DNA of 64,000 nucleotides. Source: Schmidtea polychroa (Eukaryota). The first letter of the stretch is position 1. Each line of letters begins with the position of its first letter. This document shows, in pieces, positions 1 through 54,675 of this stretch. The stretch spans positions 11,100,001 through 11,164,000 of the forward strand of contig CM097885.1 of NCBI GenBank assembly GCA_044892525.1. Direction: 5' to 3'. Below the pieces are notes generated by a model, which made no database searches, had not been told where the DNA came from, and was given only the letters and a program-made list of their open reading frames with translations. The position numbers and the translations under genes are program-made.

Positions 1-7
1 AGGTAGT

Positions 8-1330
8 ATGAAGGAGAAAAGAAATTGGCTTGAATATTCACCAACAAATCAAAAAATGCATTGCCAAGCTTACTGGTTATTCGCTGATTGTAAAACTGAA
101 AATTATAGCAAGAAATGGTCCGACCCAAAATTTGGAGTTTATGACTGGAAAAAAGGCATGGAAAAGATCGCTAAACATGAAACTTCCAATCAACATCAAA
201 GTGCAATATGTCAATATTTGCTGGCTAAATATCGCATTTCAAATGATAAAACTGTGATATCTGGTTTGATCTGTCAGGAGCGTTATCAAGTGGAAAAAAA
301 TAGAGAAGTTTTGAAACGAATGGTAGATGCAACGTTGTTTTTAGAAAAACTAGGTTTGCCATTTAGAGGACACAAGGAACATTCTGGCTCTGACAGGTGT
401 AGTAATACTAGAAATTTTCGTAAATTGCTATTTTTATTGGCTAAATATGATTCCACTTTGGATAATCATCTAAAGTTTGAAAGGAAAAATGAACTTTATT
501 TATGAACTTTATTTATGACCTAATTCAATCACTTGCTTCAGAATTATCCGCAAATATTGATAATGAAGTTAGGTCTGCACAATTCCTTTCTCTAATTGTT
601 GATTCAACAATTGATATCTTCAGAGTTGATCAGATGTCAGTTTCTTTAAGATTAGTGTTAAAATCAGGACAAGTTGTTGAACGATTTATAGGCTTCTACA
701 TATTGGAAAACAGTAATGCTGCAGCATTTTCTGATATATTATTAACGGAGTTACAAAAGCAAAACAGTGACATTACACTTTGTAGAGGACAGGCATATGA
801 TGGTGCCTCTGTGATGTCTGGGATTAAAAATGGTCTTCAAACTAAGATAAAGACACTTTCACCAAATGCCATCTTTGTTCACTGTTGTTCTCATGCATTG
901 AATTTGGTGACTTTTGAAGCAATGTCTCTTAACAGTGATGTTCAGTTGTTTTTTGGTACAACAGAAAAGTTGTATACTTTCCTTACATCAAGTCTACCAC
1001 GACTACATATCCTCGAAGAACATCAGAAGTCTCGATATGAATCGACAGTAGATACTCTAAAACGACTTTCTGATACAAGATGGGCAAGCCGAAAGCATGC
1101 AGTTGATGCAGTTGTTGGATCATTCGCCGCTATTATATCTACTCTAGAAGATATAAATTTTGGGGAATCAAAAGAATACAAAGGAAGTGTCAGAGCAGAA
1201 GCTATGGGACTATTTATTTTAATAACAAAATATTCTTTTGTTTTTCTGATGCTATTTCTACAAAAGCTGTTAGATAATATCTTTGTGTTATCAAACTATT
1301 TGCAACGAAAGGACATTGATATTGCGTTTC
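8..1330 (+). mobile_element. hAT-family (ZMYM1/TTF-zinc-finger-like) transposase, 5' part; frameshifted near 500 and interrupted at ~1330
   Basis: ORFs 8..505 and 502..1392 carry hAT motifs: GLPFRGH, LIVDSTIDI (first catalytic D), GQAYDGASVM (second D), HCCSHALNL (CxxH), TRW and LSNYLQ. Similarity stops after DIDIAF, where minus-strand gag sequence begins. Confidence 0.9.
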
Positions 1331-1650
1331 CAAATTTGTATAGCAGTAAATCTCCTTGTATCCACGTAAGTGACATCTCTGGCATTGAATAGTTGAACAT
1401 TCTCGCCGTACGTGGCCTTCAACTTCGCGTGCAAAACACGTCATTTTTCATTTGGCATTCTCGATTAATATGACCAGTTTTCTTGCATGTCAAGTAATGT
1501 TGTAGTTAATATTACTTGCATCCTAATTGTTGTTTTTGTCGCCCCAAAAAACCTTTGACAATCCCTGATAAAATTTTCTAGATCATCGCCTTTGTGAAAT
1601 TTCTCAGGTAATAGTCTGCTTATCAATAAATCAGTGGTCGTGGTCGCCAT
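1330..1650 (-). mobile_element. Degenerate, internally deleted Gypsy-type gag with CCHC zinc knuckles
   Basis: The minus strand reads MATTTTDLLISRLLPEKFHKGDDLENFIRDCQRFF, then in shifted frames CKKTGHINREC, CFAREVEGHVRREC and CQRCHLRGYKEIYC. Confidence 0.7.
1638..1649 (-). other. Primer-binding site (TGGCGACCACGA), tRNA-Arg type
   Basis: The minus strand reads ...GTCTAACA|TGGCGACCACGA, i.e. TGG immediately after a CA end. It is complementary to the 3' end (...UCGUGGUCGCCA) of metazoan tRNA-Arg(UCG) as I recall it. Confidence 0.6.
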
Positions 1651-1938
1651 GTTAGACGCAATTAAATTCAAATCTTCTTCAAGCATTTATTTTTTATAAC
1701 AACTTCAAAACTGTCTCGTTTACTAGCGTATTTAAACCCCGAGGTGTGATAATTATAATTATTAATGTAATTACTGGTCATACATTTAATTTATTTAATT
1801 TAATATAATTTAATATAATATGATATAATTTATTATAGAATTTAAATATAAAAATTTAATAGAAATAATTATTTCTACTAACTGATCTCACTTCTACCAT
1901 TTAACCATAATAATCTTATATAGGAGTTTACTAACTCC

Positions 1939-2343
1939 TTACACACCCCATCCGCCATTGGCTTCTATCCACGGAGTAAATTTGGATTTGATTATCTAAA
2001 AAATGAATATTATTAAAATATAGATTATAAAATAAATTACTTCTTGAGACCACTTGTAGTAATGTTCTGAGTCCCATAAACTTTTTTCGATGATAATTTT
2101 CATATAAGTGAATCCTACAATTATTCGGGTCCACTTCATTTCTTCGTCGAATAGGCAATTGAAGATTCGATTAAAATAAAACTTCTTTGTTTCAAGGCAT
2201 TCCATATCCATCATGTTCTGGCAGTCGATATGGTTACCTTTAATAATTTGTTCAGTCCGATTGATTAGGAAACTGAGGCTTTCCGTAATGTTTTTGCTGA
2301 CGATCTCTTTTAGGAAGTTGTCAATGAAATTAGGTTTTGACAT
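1939..2343 (-). CDS. Bcl-2-family-like protein, 119 aa, two exons (2343-2041, 1995-1939), no C-terminal TM
   Basis: Exon 1 has BH1-like FNRIFNCLFDEEMKWTRIIVGFTY. A 45-nt GT-AG intron (2040-1996, phase 0) joins it to IIKSKFTPWIEANGGWGV*, containing the BH2 motif WIxxNGGW. Confidence 0.8.
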
Positions 2344-2372
2344 TTTTACAGTAATTTAAAATATAATGTTTT

Positions 2373-2412
2373 ATTTATACTACAGAATTGTGTGCCTTAT
2401 GATTCTGATTGG
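2373..2412 (-). promoter_or_regulatory. CCAAT box (2408-2412) and TATA box (TATAAAT, 2373-2379) upstream of the Bcl-2-like ATG
   Basis: Minus strand: CCAATCA...TATAAATAAAA, then ~30 nt to the ATG at 2343. Confidence 0.55.
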
Positions 2413-2611
2413 TTGATAGACTATATGAGTTTTTGCTACAATATTTCTATTGATACCCTTGTGAGCTGTTGAGTGTGAGCAGTACCCTCATGGGGGACTG
2501 AATATCTTGTCGGATAAACTCAAAGTACTACCGTGCGCGTAATAGCAGTTATATGGTTTATATCGATGGTAAAATAATTTGGGAATTCAAATTTAAAATA
2601 TTTTAAATATT

Positions 2612-2737
2612 TGACCCCAGGTTGACCTTACTGTGACCTTACCATGACCATAAGTTGACCCTTAAATTTGACCTAAAAATATCCCTACCACGAGTGTTAT
2701 GACGTAATATGTATATATTGCGTCATATATGACGTCA
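2612..2737 (-). promoter_or_regulatory. Array of RGGTCA-like half sites (11-bp period) plus CRE/ATF-like sites
   Basis: TGACC occurs on + at 2612, 2623, 2634, 2645, 2656 and 2669. TGACGTAA is at 2700, TTGCGTCA at 2718 and TGACGTCA at 2730. Confidence 0.5.
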
Positions 2738-2768
2738 TACGTCTTTGTTCCCGGGTCGACATGTTACA

Positions 2769-3303
2769 TTACTAACTTGCACGGTTGAATGATCATTTAG
2801 CACACTGAGAAGAGTCAAAACGTGGCTAAGGGCAAGAATGTATGAAAATAGACTTTCTGGACTACATGATGAGTGTTCATTGTGACAGGATCAATGACAG
2901 TAAAAAAAGCGAAAAATAATCGACAAAGTGATTAATAAATTTGGTCAAGATCACAGACGTTTACAGTTTCTTTTCACAAAGTAATATTTATGAATAAGTC
3001 TGTAATTTTGTTTTATAATTGAATAAATAATTATGGATAATATACAACAAAAAATTTTTTTTACGTTTTTGATTCTGTTTATTCCTAAAATCACATTAAT
3101 GTTTCAACGATAAAAATGACTTTAATTGAAACCATCAATATACTGTTATTAATCTGAATGTATATAGTAAAAATATTTTTTTCATAAATGAGCATAACAA
3201 GAATTTAAATGATACTTGTATGTTTAAGTATTACATTAACATCTAGAAGTTCTTTACTTTGATTTTTTTGCCTCCCCTAGAAAAATTTCTGTGGACGCCC
3301 ATG
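2769..3303 (+). mobile_element. hAT C-terminal dimerisation domain remnant and 3' terminus
   Basis: Reads CTVE*SFSTLRRVKTWLR...ENRLSGL...IDKVINKFGQDHRRLQFLF. It ends in GGACGCCCATG, the reverse complement of the CATGGGCGTCC terminus seen at 10558. Confidence 0.75.
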
Positions 3304-3904
3304 CAATGAAATATTTTAAATTAATCAATTAGACAGGCTTAATAATTTCATTAAAGTTCTCATCATTTATGTTAATCTACAAATTATTATTATGTTTTAA
3401 AATTTTATAGATTGTGTTTGTTCCTATTATTCCGAGAAACTGAATAGATTTTGTTGACGTTATACATTGATCATACTTATAAATCGGAAACCATATTTAT
3501 AAAATCGCAAACTAACTTGCGTTATGAAGAGTTTCCACTAATTGTCAAAAATTTCATTTCAAATGCAAACATCTCCAATAAAAAAAATCACAGTATATAC
3601 AACTGATCAAACTTAACATATATGTCAGATAAAGTAAACACATCTCGCATGTTAATCAACCCAAAACTAAAATAATTTTCTGTCAATTTAACTTGATAGA
3701 ATAAACCTTAATTTACAAATATCATCTAGTCTCTTACGTTTTCCCCTAGGAAATGCAAAATTACACCAAAACACTAAATTATGTCTATGATAACATAGTG
3801 GGCAATTTATGCTGTCACAAAATCTTTTTCCATCATCTATTTATGCAAAATCTTATACTGTGTTGGGTTATGAATTTGCTCTATTTCAGTTATCTATTCC
3901 AGAT

Positions 3905-4012
3905 ATCGATTGTTGAAACTGCTTATTCATCAATTATTCAATTTAATTGTTGAAACTATTTACTCATTAATTATTCGATTTAATTGATGAAAATATTTAT
4001 TCGTTAATTATT
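3905..4012. repeat. ~37-bp imperfect tandem repeat (about 3 copies)
   Basis: Unit approximately attgttgaaactatttattcattaattattcgattta. Confidence 0.55.
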
Positions 4013-4349
4013 GTGCTAGTGTTTTGTTAAATTCGATTTTATCTAATATGACTCGTGATCGATACTGATGTGCCGAACGTCAGTTACGTCTTCTCTATAC
4101 AAGATTGTATTATGTTTAAAATCAATGAAGCATCTGTGTCTTTTACTGATATTTGAAGCTCTCAACCAATACTAATAAACCGAATTTTGGTCATACTTTT
4201 CCGATCTATTTCATTCAAATTGCTTCAAATTAAAATATTTTACCAAAAGATCGAAATTGTATTATGTTCTTAAAATTTTAATTTGTTCATATCCCTCTAC
4301 ATACTGGACTTCGTCGAGGAGAATGCTTAGTGTTATATAGTGTTATATA

Positions 4350-6435
4350 TCCGCACCATCAACGTTTCAAAAACTTATGACATTAATAATTGGAGATCTG
4401 ATGTGGAATGAAGCATCAGTCTATTTAGAGGACATATTAATCTTTTCGAAAACTATTGAAGAACAAAAAGAAAGAATAAATAAACTTTTCCTTAGAATTA
4501 GGAAATCGGGACTAAAAATTTACCCTGAGAAATGCAAGTTCTTAGTACCTGAATTAAAGTTTCTTGGACATATAATTAATGAAAAGGTATCAAAACAGAT
4601 AAAACTAAGATTGAAACAATTAAAAATGTGAAGCAGCCTAATTGTGTGAAACATCTTAGGAGTTTTTTAGGATTGTATAATTACTATAGAAAATTTATTC
4701 AAAACGATTCAAAAATAGCTAGGCCATTTGAATCTTTGATTGGAGGTAAAAACAAAAGTATTATTTGGACATCACAATGTGAAAAAGCTTTTGACGAGTT
4801 AAAACATAGTTTGATCAGTGCACCATCAATATGCCATCCGGATTTTAATAAAACGTTCATTTTAGATACCTATGGTAGTTTTGATTGTATTGGCGCTGTT
4901 TTATCGCAAAGAGATTACAATAATGAAGAAAAGATAATCGCATATAAGTCAAAAAGTATGATTAAACATGAAATTGGGTACTGTATAACAAGGAAGGAAT
5001 TATTATCTGTTTCCATTTTAGACAGCATTTTAAACATTATCTCTACGGGAAAAAATTTATTTTAAGAACTGATCATAAGGCAATCACATTTATGTTAACT
5101 ACTAAAAAACCAATTACCGCTCAGTTTCAAAAATGGCATAAATTTTTTAAGTAGTTTGGGCTTGAAATTAGAATATCGCAAAGGTGAGTCACACAAAACA
5201 CGCACTATCACGACTGATATAGGAAATTGCACACGTCAGATGAATCATATTGATGCTAAAGAGTAAAAAATTAAAACTAAAATTTTAGCAATGTAGAAGA
5301 TCAAACATTTAAATGGAAAAATAATTCTGAAGAAATAAAGAAAATAAAAGAAAATATACAGAACGGCAAAACTGAAGATTGTTATGTGGACAATGGAATT
5401 ATTATGACTCATAATAATAAAATATATATTCCTTCATATATGAAAAACGATTTTATTCTAGAAATCCATAGAGAATTGTGTCATACAGGAATCAACATAA
5501 CTACAAATTACATAAAGAATTATTACAATTTCCAAGAAATGGATAAAAGTATCAAGAGAATTATCACAACTTGTGAAATTTGCCAGAAACGTAAAACATT
5601 CACTGGGAAAACAAAAGAAGTTATTGAAAAATTAATTGCGCGTGAACCATTTGAAAAAATATATATTGATTTTTGTGGCCCCTTTAAAATGACACCATCT
5701 GGCAAAAGATATGTGATGGCTATAATAGATCATTTTAGTGAATATATAGTATTAAAAGCTGTAAGAACACAAGAAGAAAAGACATTAATTGATAATGTGA
5801 AAAGTTCGTGGATAATGAAGTTTGGACTGCCAAAGGAAATTCATGTTGATAAAGGAAAATGTTTCGAATCCCAAGTTTTTAAAAATATGGCAGTAAAGTA
5901 TTACTTGAAAATAGTTTATTAAAGCATTTATCATCATCAATCTAATGGACAAATTGAAAGACAATTTAGAACGCTAAGAGACTGGATTTCATGCTGTCTG
6001 GAAGAGAAAAAAATTAAGACATGGGAAGAAGCATTACCTCATATAGAATTTGCAATGAATTCAACAATACAATCAAGTATAAAAGTTAGTCCTGTTGAAG
6101 TAATATATGGAAAGAAATTTTGCAAAGAGCGTTTTACTAATGGTCCAGAAATTGATACTAAAGAATCAAAGAAGCATGAAATAGCATTGAATATTAAATC
6201 ATTGAACCGTATAAATAATTATAATCAAGAAAATCTAATACATAGATCTTTCAGAGTTAGTGAATTGGTACTCGTCAAGGAAGATATCAGAAACAAGCAA
6301 GATAACGGGTATTGCGGACCTTTTGAAATGATGGGAAAATATAATAAAAATAGTTATTTATTAAGGAATGCTGGTAATAAATGTATTACTAGAAATGTGG
6401 AATGGCTAAAGTCATTTAAAACGAAGGGTATGTGA
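4350..6435 (+). mobile_element. Ty3/Gypsy pol fragment (RT C-terminus, RNase H, integrase); 5'-truncated and frameshifted
   Basis: YLEDILIF (mutated YLDD), EKCKF...LKFLGH, LRSFLGLYNYYRKFI, FILDT..S...IGAVLSQ, YCITRKELL, integrase HHCC zinc finger, IDFCGP, IDHFS, D.GKCF, HHQSNGQIER and GPF motif. Confidence 0.95.
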
Positions 6436-6667
6436 TGTAATTATAATGGGATATTTGATTTCCCTAACCTTTACCCTATATTATTTAATGCCTGCATGTG
6501 TGATTTATTATTTTTGATTGTCTGGATCCTCAAATTATGTCACTGATTATTATTTCCCTAAAAGCTATTGCTGATTGTGTTGGTGTCAACACATCGGGTA
6601 CAATAAATAGTACCACAATTTCTTAAATAATGTTTTTGGAATTTATCAATTATTCTTATTCGTTACA
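6431..6667 (+). mobile_element. Probable 3' LTR of the Gypsy element (TGTGA...TTACA)
   Basis: Follows a short purine tract (GAAGGGTA) at the end of pol, has TG...CA ends and contains an internal AATAAA. Confidence 0.55.
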
Positions 6668-8219
6668 CTGCTCATAAACACAACACATACTACACAATAC
6701 AATCAAACTTTTGATCTATAGTAACTTTATTTCAGACAATTTTGAGAAAAAATGAATCGCTGAAACCTTTTAAAACTCTTTTTATGAAGAAACTACGTTA
6801 TTTTGTCATGAAAATGACAAAATATCAACTAGAGATTTAAATAGAAATTGAGTTAAATAGAAATAGAAAGAAGTAACAATTGTAAAAATTTCATTTCATT
6901 TCATTAAAAAGTATAAAAACTTTACTATATTTGTGGACCAGTAGGTATCCCGGTTGGCCAGTCCAGCACTGCTTAAAGTTTACTTAAATAAAAAAATTAC
7001 CTGAAAGCTATTTCTAAAATGGCTAAATACAAATAGTTAAAATAGCTAAAATAGTACACTAACCATTCCAAAAAATTCCATCATAAATAATGACGCATCT
7101 ATAATTAGTTATACACACCAGCCTATATTATAGACGCGTTTGTTCACTGCAAACAGGTGTACTAGAAACTGATATGGTTTATTTAAGGTTGGTTGACAGT
7201 CACCTATGTTATTTTCTAAATGCATATATCTCGACAGCTGTCAGAGATTACGGAATGCCAATGGGAAAAGTGGGAAAAAGAATGAATTTTAAATATGTTC
7301 CATCAGATGAAAAAGTATAAAAACCGAAGACAAATTAATAGAAAGAAAGAAAAATTGGAACGAGAGAAAAAATGCTTCTAGAAAAACAAAAAAGGGAAAA
7401 TTTGTTAGAAAGAAATTTGTGAAAAATTTGTATTCACGAGGAGAGTAAAATAAAGTGTTGTGAATAAGGAAACAGTTGAAAGAAACTTGTGTATTAAATT
7501 AATGAATAAGAGGTTGTTAAAAGCAACCAGATCAATTTTGCGAATTGCCCATTACCGATAGTAGTCAAGCAGCCATGTTCTTAGAGGATTGATATTGTTG
7601 TGCTATTCTTTCTGGAGGGTCGTAATAAGCATTTGAAACATTTGAGGTGTGTTCGAAATCGGTATCGTTGAATTCGTTGTAATAAATTGTGATAATTAAG
7701 TTTTACGTCGTTGAGATTTGACATTGTCGTTATTAAATAGCACGCTCGGAGTCAGGTCAGTTAATAGCAGTTAACACTCACCAACCAACTACAATATACC
7801 CAACAAGTTTATCATTGAAATCGAGTTGCCTTGGTTACTTAAACGCGTAGTATCTTTTGGATTAATATAGTGCAAGTCGTCTTAATCGTTACTCTAGCTA
7901 TAGAACCTAACACATACATAACTATTATTATTTATTTATATTTATTATTATTTACAGTGAAAGCTTTTAGTATTATGACAATCATTCTGGATTGTTTATA
8001 AAAATTTCAACATGCAATTAAAATACCAATCATCATTCAATTAATATAATAATAAATATAAACTAATATCTCAAATATTATTATTAATAATTAGATAATA
8101 AAAAAAAGAAAATTTGATAGAGAAAAAACAACTGAATAAAAATTATAATACAAACATTTATTTATTCTAACAATCAAAATTATTCATTAATAAGTGTTAT
8201 AAGGCAGCAGTATTATCTT

Positions 8220-54675
<46,456 letters not shown>

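What the first reader, a model, noticed from the sequence alone, without database searches (positions are those of the whole stretch)
1330..2768. LTR-retrotransposon-like element carrying its own Bcl-2-like gene inside the LTR-like segment
Seen on the minus strand, in order: a TGTAAC start at the exact hAT junction (2768), an enhancer-like array, CCAAT/TATA, a spliced 119-aa ORF with BH1-like LFDEEMKWTRIIVGF and BH2 WIEANGGW, a TAACA end, PBS-like TGGCGACCACGA and a zinc-knuckle gag. Established: large DNA viruses carry compact Bcl-2 homologues that block apoptosis, and some retroviral LTRs encode accessory ORFs (HIV nef, MMTV sag). Bcl-2 is not standard Gypsy cargo. Inference: this is a retroelement family that captured an apoptosis regulator, possibly to keep alive the cells in which it transposes. 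The Bcl-2 ORF is intact while the adjacent gag is decayed.
Basis: partly seen in the sequence, partly recalled or inferred. Interest (0 to 1): 0.9.

Follow-up and report, generated by a model that had tools for sequence, protein, structure and literature searches.

The report
Bcl-2-like gene in Maverick transposon end
The supposed LTR is the cut-off end of a virus-like Maverick/Polinton DNA transposon that carries a small cell-death-regulator (Bcl-2-like) gene in its terminal inverted repeat, and a separate retrotransposon has landed in that gene.

Summary

- **Window 1944-2773 (minus strand)** is the outer 830 bp of a terminal inverted repeat (TIR), not an LTR. Its true end is AGTAATGTAAC at 2773.
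- **The insertion** is one 8,039-bp element running from 5.3 kb upstream of the window to 2773. It has a 6-bp target duplication, confirmed against nine uninterrupted copies of the flanking repeat, and it encodes an rve+chromo-type integrase. Sister elements with the same TIR encode a protein-primed DNA polymerase B, so this is Maverick/Polinton-like.
- **The gene** has two exons and a 160-aa product with a membrane tail anchor. The Pfam Bcl-2 model covers positions 6-100 of 100: 30.5 bits for the window copy and 32-34.5 bits for sister copies (cut-off 31.4).
- **The window copy is not intact.** An unrelated high-copy LTR retroelement (1331-1943, with its own LTR, PBS and gag) cuts off the last 42 residues.
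- **Selection:** dN/dS is about 0.1 between subfamilies. Of 28 polymerase-bearing ends, 7 carry the gene and 18 do not.
- **Precedent:** Bcl2 homologues in adintoviruses, and a BCL2-like motif in planarian Burro retroelements, are already published.

This is a new member of a known kind.

The parts
1944..2773 (-). Outer 830 bp of the right terminal inverted repeat (TIR) of a Maverick/Polinton-like element. The whole insertion is G000:C1:11094735-11102773 and starts 5.3 kb upstream of the window.
   Evidence: 98.3% identical over 830 bp, in inverted orientation, to L031:4735-5564. 84-91% identical to more than 20 other copies, all starting at the same terminus.
2763..2773 (-). Element terminus AGTAATGTAAC. 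The family form is AGTAGGGTAAC.
   Evidence: 15 of 15 termini found with the motif have unrelated DNA outside it. Window flank shown.
2774..2779 (+). Right copy of the 6-bp target-site duplication (AACTTG; the left copy TAATTG is at L031:4729-4734).
   Evidence: The left flank (L031:4380-4734) and right flank (window 2774-3100) map contiguously, overlapping by exactly 6 bp, in 9 other copies of the flanking hAT-family repeat.
2612..2674 (-). Subterminal array of six DGGTCA motifs with an 11-bp period.
   Evidence: The array is present 90-245 bp from the terminus in 17 of 17 family-A termini, with 1-10 units.
2730..2737 (-). TGACGTCA palindrome (CRE-like; the name is recalled, not from a call).
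2372..2412 (-). CCAAT box (2412-2408) and TATAAATA (2379-2372) upstream of the ATG.
   Evidence: Homology among subfamilies A, B and C starts about 80 bp upstream of the ATG and includes both motifs.
2041..2343 (-). Exon 1 of the Bcl-2-like gene (101 aa, carries the BH1-like KWTR segment).
1996..2040 (-). 45-nt GT..AG intron.
   Evidence: 29 of 32 copies have GT..AG. Lengths of 44 and 46 nt in subfamilies B and C shift the frame, so splicing is needed to read exon 2. An intronless paralogue is colinear across the junction. No RNA evidence.
1944..1995 (-). Truncated exon 2 (17 codons, BH2 WIEANGGW). The last 42 codons, including the tail anchor, are missing.
1331..1943 (-). 5' fragment of an unrelated high-copy LTR retroelement. 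LTR at 1943-1650 (TGT...ACA), PBS-like TGGCGACCACGA at 1649-1638, and a gag fragment with an internal deletion of about 470 bp. It supplies the TAA at 1941-1939 that ends the window ORF.
   Evidence: 1,622 candidates in the genome. All 39 other listed copies begin at query position 1-2, and 3 of 3 fetched copies have unrelated DNA beyond.
1..1334 (+). hAT-like (DUF4371) repeat nested inside the Maverick. It begins at L031:9405.
   Evidence: PF14291 at E 3e-10. 3 of 3 other copies end at window 1334.
2780..3100 (+). Older hAT-family copy (C-terminal coding part) into which the Maverick inserted.
   Evidence: Its reading frame PVSN|CTVE*SFSTLRRVKTWLRARM continues from L031:4734 to window 2780. 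Contiguous in paralogous copies.

Best explanation
Window 1944-2773 is the outer part of the right TIR of a degraded 8-kb Maverick/Polinton-like (adintovirus-like) DNA element. The family's TIR is about 2 kb long. It holds a self-contained cellular-type gene made of a CCAAT/TATA promoter, two exons and a 44-46-nt intron. The product is a 160-aa tail-anchored Bcl-2-family protein, so a complete element carries two inward-facing copies.

Inferred mechanism: when the element is transcribed or replicating, the protein sits in the mitochondrial or ER membrane and blocks the intrinsic apoptosis pathway. That keeps the host cell alive, as viral Bcl-2 homologues do.

The window copy is dead. An unrelated LTR retroelement inserted at codon 118, and the element's polymerase region has been lost.

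Shown here: element architecture, target duplication, gene structure, Bcl-2 homology, and purifying selection between lineages. Inferred only: splicing in vivo, expression, and anti- rather than pro-apoptotic activity.
For: **Architecture**
- Five inward-facing inverted pairs lie 8-12 kb apart.
- TIR homology reaches about 1.95 kb in L034.
- The terminus AGTAGGGTAAC is conserved, with unrelated flanks in 15 of 15 cases.
- There are perfect 6-bp duplications at two pairs: AATAAT and TATAAT.
- For the window's own element, nine empty-site paralogues overlap the two flanks by 6 bp.

**Element genes**
- Sister elements with the same TIR (L032, L034) hold an ORF of about 1,400 aa. An intact relative of that ORF hits PF03175 at E 7e-29, 101 bits.
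- The window's element keeps an integrase ORF. Its homologues (E 7e-36 to 7e-30) carry PF00665 + PF00385.
- It also keeps a weak A32-like ATPase ORF.

**Bcl-2 identity**
- PF00452 covers HMM positions 6-100. The window copy scores 30.5 bits and sister copies 32-34.5 bits, against a cut-off of 31.4.
- 12 of 14 PDB profile hits are BFL-1/A1, a schistosome Bcl-2, BAK or BAX, aligned on the BH1 region.
- 18 of 30 nearest Atlas clusters are PF00452.
- The tail anchor is LATGVAILYIICRFL.

**Selection**
- dN/dS is 0.09-0.11 between subfamilies (dS 0.9-1.7) and 0.7-1.4 among old family-A copies.
- At least 2,370 candidate exon-1 matches exist. 135 of the 150 scored have no stop.
Against: - No RNA evidence for expression or splicing.
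- The window copy scores 0.9 bits below the Pfam cut-off, and exon 1 alone scores only 18.5 bits.
- Structure prediction was low-confidence and gave no significant fold match.
- BH1 reads KWTR rather than NWGR.
- Capsid and protease genes were not examined, and the window's own element has no polymerase left.
- 18 of 28 polymerase-bearing ends lack the gene, so it is dispensable for spread.
- Only 4 of 19 family-A copies are intact.
- One inverted pair (L034) has no matching target duplication.
Confidence: 0.8

Rival explanations
1. One reading: an LTR retrotransposon whose LTR (about 1650-2768) encodes the Bcl-2-like ORF, followed by its own PBS and gag.
For: In the window the ORF, TAACA/TGGCGACCACGA and a gag-like ORF lie in that order on one strand. 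Burro LTR elements of a planarian are reported to carry a BCL2-like motif (PMC6431247, section 7, passages read).
Against: - The LTR/PBS/gag family starts at window 1943 in all 39 other listed copies and in 3 of 3 fetched copies, with no Bcl-2 sequence.
- The Bcl-2 unit occurs in inverted pairs with 6-bp duplications.
- In other copies the Bcl-2 unit continues past the junction into the rest of the gene.
- The gene keeps a sense-strand intron.
Confidence: 0.02
2. The ORF is a small helical tail-anchored protein with only chance or convergent resemblance to Bcl-2. Its role for the element has nothing to do with apoptosis.
For: - E-values for exon 1 alone are marginal: Pfam 0.003, PDB 0.065-0.9.
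- No relative outside the family turned up in 1.8 billion representatives.
- Fold searches were non-significant.
- BH1 is non-canonical.
Against: - The Pfam model spans positions 6-100 across both exons and passes the curated cut-off in sister copies.
- The 14 control genomes gave no hits in that search.
- BH1 and BH2 fall in the right order and spacing, followed by a tail anchor.
- Top hits in three independent searches are Bcl-2 proteins.
- An intronless paralogue passes Pfam at 32.7 bits.
Confidence: 0.08
3. It is a Bcl-2-fold protein that is pro-apoptotic (Bax/Bak-like) or has a non-apoptotic role, for example innate-immune signalling inhibition as in some poxvirus Bcl-2-like proteins (recalled).
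For: BAK and BAX are among the weak PDB hits. An Atlas cluster with Poxv_Bcl-2-like is among the neighbours. No functional data exist.
Against: The best hits are the pro-survival proteins BFL-1/A1 and a schistosome Bcl-2 and Bcl-xL for the paralogue model. No clear LxxxGD BH3 motif is visible in exon 1 (motif recalled). The published adintovirus precedent calls them anti-apoptotic homologues (PMC8502044).
Confidence: 0.1

Closest known systems
Bcl2 homologues among adintovirus / Maverick-Polinton accessory genes (Starrett et al. 2021, PMC8502044; passages read, supplementary figures not seen)
   Same: A virus-like element of animals with protein-primed PolB and a retrovirus-like integrase that carries a Bcl-2-family accessory gene.
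   Different: Here the gene lies inside the TIR, so there are two copies per element. It has its own CCAAT/TATA promoter and a spliceosomal intron. It sits in an endogenous family with thousands of copies, and it is present in some sublineages and absent in others. The paper gives one sentence, and I could not check gene position or hosts there.
BCL2-like motif of Burro giant Gypsy LTR retrotransposons of Schmidtea mediterranea (Grohme et al. 2018, as cited in PMC6431247; passages read)
   Same: A mobile element of a planarian-type genome carrying a Bcl-2-like sequence. This genome also has Bcl-2 domains inside open frames of 1,000-3,090 aa.
   Different: In Burro it is a domain inside a giant ORF1 polyprotein of a retroelement. 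Here it is a stand-alone two-exon gene in a DNA element. The sequences are only distantly alike: the BH2 region is 58% identical over 12 aa, E 4e-4.
Adenovirus E1B-19K and other viral Bcl-2 homologues of herpes-, pox- and asfarviruses (recalled, not from a call)
   Same: A small anti-apoptotic Bcl-2-like protein encoded near a genome end of a protein-primed linear dsDNA virus. An Atlas neighbour cluster carries Adeno_E1B_19K/Bcl-2 annotations and is mostly Preplasmiviricota.
   Different: No detectable specific sequence relationship. The element is endogenous and germline-transmitted, and function is untested.

Membership tests
Bcl-2 family (Pfam PF00452) | Match to the family HMM at or above the curated cut-off (31.4 bits) | tested here: met
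   Sister copies with the same gene score 32-34.5 bits over HMM positions 6-100: the two L034 arms 33.8, L012 33.4. The window copy itself scores 30.5 bits (E 2.7e-4), which is 0.9 bits short, and that alignment carries 15 intron-encoded residues. Exon 1 alone scores 18.5 bits.
Bcl-2 family (Pfam PF00452) | BH1 and BH2 segments in the right order and spacing (motif names recalled) | tested here: met
   KWTRIIVGF aligns with NWGRIVTIF of BFL-1/A1. WIEANGGW follows 28 residues later in the spliced product. The BH1 Gly is replaced by Thr.
Bcl-2 family (Pfam PF00452) | Helical-bundle Bcl-2 fold | tested here: inconclusive
   The exon-1-only model has pLDDT 66 and no significant match. The model of the intronless paralogue L075 has pLDDT 50; its listed Foldseek rows (to rank 50) are all Bcl-xL, Bcl-2 or BAK, but at E 0.07-0.8. 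The spliced protein could not be submitted.
Bcl-2 family (Pfam PF00452) | C-terminal membrane tail anchor (typical of the family, not universal) | tested here: met
   The full-length copy ends ...KLATGVAILYIICRFLNKN, with mean Kyte-Doolittle hydropathy 2.07 over 15 residues. The window copy has lost it.
Bcl-2 family (Pfam PF00452) | BH3-groove binding / control of apoptosis | not testable with these tools
   Needs binding or cell-death assays.
Maverick / Polinton (adintovirus-like) elements | [quoted passage not shown] | tested here: met
   PF03175 at E 7e-29, 101 bits, on L046:1-2400. The same ORF lies between Bcl-2-bearing TIRs in L032 and L034. It has been lost from the window's own degraded element.
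Maverick / Polinton (adintovirus-like) elements | Retrovirus-like (rve) integrase | tested here: met
   The ORF L031:8106-8789, inside the window's element, has four homologues of 402-414 aa (E 7e-36 to 7e-30) that carry PF00665 + PF00385. Direct Pfam on the decayed ORF gives only E 0.021.
Maverick / Polinton (adintovirus-like) elements | Long terminal inverted repeats with 5'-AG ends and a 6-bp target-site duplication (features recalled from Kapitonov & Jurka 2006) | tested here: met
   TIRs of about 1-2 kb. AG terminus in 15 of 15 cases. Of 5 pairs, 3 show the 6-bp duplication: two perfect and the window's own, now matching 4 of 6 bases, by nine empty sites. One pair is not assessable and one has none.
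Maverick / Polinton (adintovirus-like) elements | A32/FtsK-type packaging ATPase | tested here: inconclusive
   L031:7571-8116 matches Pox_A32 at E 0.031. It is 25% identical over 105 aa (pairwise E 6e-5) to the PF04665-positive ORF of viral contig L076.
Maverick / Polinton (adintovirus-like) elements | Double and single jelly-roll capsid proteins and an adenain-like protease | not tested
LTR retrotransposon with the ORF inside its LTR | The ORF-bearing segment occurs as direct repeats flanking PBS-gag-pol and shares the LTR's boundaries | tested here: not met
   Copies are inverted pairs. The PBS/gag family's LTR starts at window 1943 and lacks the ORF in all 39 other listed copies and 3 of 3 fetched copies.
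Burro giant Gypsy elements | Bcl-2-like domain embedded in the giant ORF1 polyprotein | tested here: not met
   Here it is a 160-aa stand-alone gene. Bcl-2 domains in open frames of 1,000-3,090 aa form a separate class in the same genome.

The most novel reading that the evidence does not exclude
At least three unrelated repeat families in one flatworm genome carry Bcl-2 sequences independently: the Burro-type polyprotein domain, this Maverick TIR gene, and a multi-copy intronless 144-aa gene. On this reading, blocking mitochondrial apoptosis is a general requirement for mobile elements to spread in this host's damage-sensitive stem cells. The hundreds of intact Maverick copies would be expressed and would measurably shift the host's apoptosis threshold.
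Probability: 0.2. Interest if true: 0.7.

Novelty: new member of a known kind. Interest (0 to 1): 0.45.

Why it matters
It corrects a chimeric reading. What looked like one retroelement with an exotic LTR gene is a nest of three repeats.

The real carrier is a virus-like Maverick/Polinton family that keeps a Bcl-2-like gene under strong purifying selection inside its TIR. That gives a concrete, high-copy example of the anti-apoptotic accessory genes so far mentioned only briefly for adintoviruses.

It also gives a natural comparison, since sublineages exist with and without the gene. That comparison could be used to ask whether blocking cell death helps such elements spread.

The two-exon structure, with an intron more conserved than silent codon positions, is an added oddity.

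Tried and rejected
- **RNA evidence:** no RNA holder was listed. Contigs of four runs of unknown kind (X1-X4, one study) cover the gene but show no joint across 5468/5514, and some bridge the intron unspliced. This says nothing on expression.
- **Folding:** the exon-1 model (pLDDT 66) and the model of the intronless paralogue (pLDDT 50) gave no match at E <= 0.001 in Foldseek. VIA-align returned only generic helical bundles, Z <= 6.9.
- **Homologue searches:**
  - A profile search of 1.8 billion representatives found only the family's own ORF.
  - The word-index search found three exon-1 ORFs on short contigs.
  - No relative of the 144-aa paralogue was found.
  - No Bcl-2 relative was found in viral contigs.
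- **PDB searches:** the polymerase and integrase ORFs gave nothing.
- **An intronless copy that could be folded whole:** the 167-aa open frame at C1:67803471 turned out to be exon 1 running into a (TAT)n expansion inside the intron.
- **Donor of the gene:** comparison with two host-type Bcl-2 genes and one giant-ORF domain gave only weak, similar scores (E 7e-4 to 0.1 for exon 1), so no donor can be named.
- **Same hAT on both sides of 1331-2768:** rejected. The DUF4371 repeat ends at 1334 in 3 of 3 copies and is not the repeat that flanks 2774.
- **Literature:** searches for Polinton + Bcl-2 (3 papers, none about cargo) and Maverick + Bcl-2 + integrase (1 paper, about Burro) found no description of this gene. 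Searches were badly framed and uninformative. One search (adintovirus + 'Bcl-2') found nothing because the paper writes 'Bcl2'.
Full report
**What is in the sequence.**

- An ATG at 2343 and a 101-aa first exon.
- A 45-nt GT..AG intron and a second exon that reads IIKSKFTPWIEANGGWGV*.
- CCAAT and TATAAATA upstream of the ATG, and a TGACGTCA palindrome.
- Six DGGTCA motifs at 2612-2674, spaced 11, 11, 11, 11 and 13 bp on one strand. The whole 64-kb window has only 42 such motifs, against 40 expected.
- Downstream, TAACA, TGGCGACCACGA and a decayed zinc-knuckle-like ORF.

The error is in treating all of it as one element.

**Three repeats, not one.**

A search of the window's own 781-Mb assembly with 1650-2768 gave 45 scored matches from 5,226 candidates. 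In none of them does homology go past query position 826, which is window 1943.

The remaining stretch, 1331-1942, belongs to a different family with 1,622 candidates.
- All 39 other listed copies start at query position 1-2.
- All 3 fetched copies have unrelated DNA beyond that point.

That family's own LTR is therefore 1943-1650 (TGT...ACA). It is followed by the PBS-like TGGCGACCACGA and a gag fragment that has lost about 470 bp relative to its sisters. It contains no Bcl-2 sequence.

Window 1-1334 is a third repeat, a DUF4371 hAT-like element. It ends at 1334 in 3 of 3 other copies.

**The Bcl-2 unit is a terminal inverted repeat.**

The copies come as inward-facing inverted pairs 8-12 kb apart, with five pairs. 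The partner of the window copy lies 5.3 kb upstream of the window (L031:4735-5564) and is 98.3% identical over 830 bp. Other copies are at most 91% identical.

All copies begin with AGTAGGGTAACATGTGGACC, and the DNA outside that terminus is unrelated in 15 of 15 cases. The window reads AGTAATGTAAC starting at 2773.

Evidence for a 6-bp target duplication:
- Two pairs have perfect duplications: AATAAT and TATAAT.
- For the window's own pair the flanks are TAATTG and AACTTG, matching at 4 of 6 positions.
- The two flanks are the two halves of one hAT-family coding sequence, PVSN|CTVE.SFSTLRRVKTWLRARM.
- In nine other copies of that repeat the left and right flanks map contiguously with exactly 6 bp of overlap.

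So G000:C1:11094735-11102773 is a single 8,039-bp insertion. Of the other two pairs, one could not be assessed because a terminus is truncated. The other (L034) is a large palindrome without a matching duplication.

**What kind of element.**

Between Bcl-2-bearing TIRs, L032 and L034 hold pieces of one long ORF with DNA polymerase B motifs. A search with its C-terminus found 12,995 candidates, and many of the 129 scored lie in open frames of 1,350-1,410 aa. An intact 800-aa stretch hits PF03175 (organellar/viral type-B polymerase) at E 7e-29, and Endonuclease_7 at 23.9 bits.

The window's own element has lost the polymerase. After its left TIR it still has two ORFs:
- One with a weak Pox_A32-like match (E 0.031). 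It is 25% identical over 105 aa to a PF04665-positive ORF of a viral contig.
- An integrase ORF whose four homologues (E 7e-36 to 7e-30) carry rve plus a chromodomain.

The nearest polymerase relative in IMG/VR (33% identity over 758 aa) sits on a 21.6-kb contig that also has an rve integrase and an A32-type ATPase.

The polymerase, the integrase, the long TIRs, the AG termini and the 6-bp duplication are the Maverick/Polinton hallmarks.

Three earlier notes of this scan on the same genome also call the polymerase family Maverick/Polinton. I treated them as leads and tested the polymerase and integrase myself.

**The gene.**

The partner copy shows the full gene. Exon 2 continues ...GGWGLLNQLARNAKEIDEHKIKFKNYIKLATGVAILYIICRFLNKN*, which gives 160 aa ending in a hydrophobic tail anchor. 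The window copy is cut after codon 117, and its 'V*' is read from the foreign LTR. It is therefore a truncated pseudogene, not an intact 119-aa ORF.

The intron is supported by four observations:
- 29 of 32 copies have GT..AG.
- Lengths of 44 and 46 nt in two subfamilies would shift the frame if the intron were not removed.
- Both exons are under selection.
- A multi-copy intronless paralogue (L075, 144 aa) is colinear across the junction.

No RNA evidence could be obtained.

**Is it Bcl-2?**

Exon 1 alone is marginal: Pfam PF00452 at 18.5-20.4 bits. The PDB hits have E 0.065-0.9, but 12 of 14 are BFL-1/A1, a schistosome Bcl-2, BAK or BAX, aligned on the BH1 region.

The six-frame Pfam search of the whole genome reads through the in-frame intron and aligns HMM positions 6-100.
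- The window copy and its partner score 30.5 bits.
- The two L034 arms score 33.8 and L012 scores 33.4.
- Other rows of the same form reach up to 34.5, against a cut-off of 31.4.
- The 14 control genomes gave no hits.

In the protein Atlas, 18 of the 30 nearest clusters are PF00452. The intronless paralogue passes Pfam at 32.7 bits. Its low-confidence model retrieves only Bcl-xL, Bcl-2 or BAK in the listed rows (to rank 50), at non-significant E.

I take family membership as established by sequence and the fold as not yet shown.

**Evolution.**

At least three subfamilies of the gene exist. Exon 1 is 73-84% identical in protein between them.
- Between subfamilies, dN/dS is 0.09-0.11 with dS 0.9-1.7.
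- Among old family-A copies, dN/dS is 0.7-1.4.

This pattern is expected if the protein matters while a lineage is active and decays after insertion.

Intact ORFs among the copies examined:

| Subfamily | Intact | Examined |
|---|---|---|
| A | 4 | 19 |
| B | 3 | 6 |
| C | 5 | 7 |

Partial copies L001, L017, L019, L023, L024 and L055, and the duplicate L002, were dropped before this count.

The exon-1 search found 2,370 candidates, and 135 of the 150 scored have no stop.

The gene is accessory. Of 28 polymerase-bearing ends:
- 7 carry it just downstream of the polymerase.
- 18 reach the terminus without it.
- 1 is odd and 2 are undetermined.

**How it probably works (inference).**

The cassette carries its own promoter near each end of the element. 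It would deliver a tail-anchored Bcl-2-like protein to mitochondrial or ER membranes and blunt the intrinsic death pathway in cells where the element is transcribed or replicating. This parallels viral Bcl-2 homologues and adenovirus E1B-19K, a gene next to that virus's terminal repeat (recalled). Pro-death or non-apoptotic roles are not excluded.

The 11-bp DGGTCA array is present in 17 of 17 family-A termini, with 1-10 units. It is more likely a subterminal protein-binding array of the TIR than a gene enhancer. This is untested.

**Known or new.**

Starrett et al. [quoted passage not shown]

Burro LTR elements of Schmidtea mediterranea are reported to contain a BCL2-like motif in their giant polyprotein (PMC6431247, passages read). 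This genome also shows Bcl-2 domains in open frames of 1,000-3,090 aa.

Searches for Polinton or Maverick together with Bcl-2 found no description of this gene.

The finding is therefore a new member of a known kind. Its specific features are the TIR location, the intron, strong selection, a very high copy number, and presence/absence among sublineages.

Noticed in passing
window 1996-2040 (-); L031:5469-5513; L028, L046: The 44-46-nt intron is 93-95% identical between the three subfamilies, while third codon positions are only 56-69% identical. High DNA identity spans gene positions about 286-390. The cause could be nucleotide-level constraint or recombination. In another subfamily the intron holds a long (TAT)n expansion (L074).
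   Followed up: partly
L075:128-559 (-) = G000:C1:15405777-15406208; at least 8 near-identical places: A multi-copy, intronless 144-aa Bcl-2-like ORF with a tail anchor: PF00452 32.7 bits, BH2 WIKENGDW. It is 25% identical to exon 1 of the Maverick gene and has a similar AACCAATCA motif upstream. Its carrier element is unknown.
   Followed up: partly
G000:C4:89948841-90831822: Seven near-identical canonical Bcl-2 domains (68 bits, NWGR and GGW in one ORF, L078) lie within 0.9 Mb. This looks like a tandem or segmentally duplicated host-type cluster.
   Followed up: no
L031:6137-7003: An 866-bp insertion in the left TIR of the window's element carries a proteasome-subunit ORF on the minus strand (PF00227, E 1e-25). 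It is absent from other copies.
   Followed up: no
L034+L035 = G000:C1:203691029-203703030: Two polymerase-bearing element halves are joined head to head into a near-perfect palindrome of about 9.4 kb, with rve/RNase H-like fragments at its centre and no matching target duplication.
   Followed up: no
L031:5756-5998 (-) and L031:7124-7552 (-), inside the TIR: Two further conserved TIR ORFs with no Pfam match: an 81-aa acidic protein ending in a Cys-rich tail, and a 143-aa protein.
   Followed up: no
window 4341-6435 (+): Frameshifted Gypsy-type pol (RT, RNase H and integrase-like ORFs) on the opposite strand to the gag fragment. It is not part of the same copy.
   Followed up: no
L076 (IMG/VR contig, 1-18391): The nearest viral-collection polymerase relative lies with a GIY-YIG ORF, an rve integrase, an A32 ATPase and two NUMOD4-HNH-AP2 ORFs.
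   Followed up: partly
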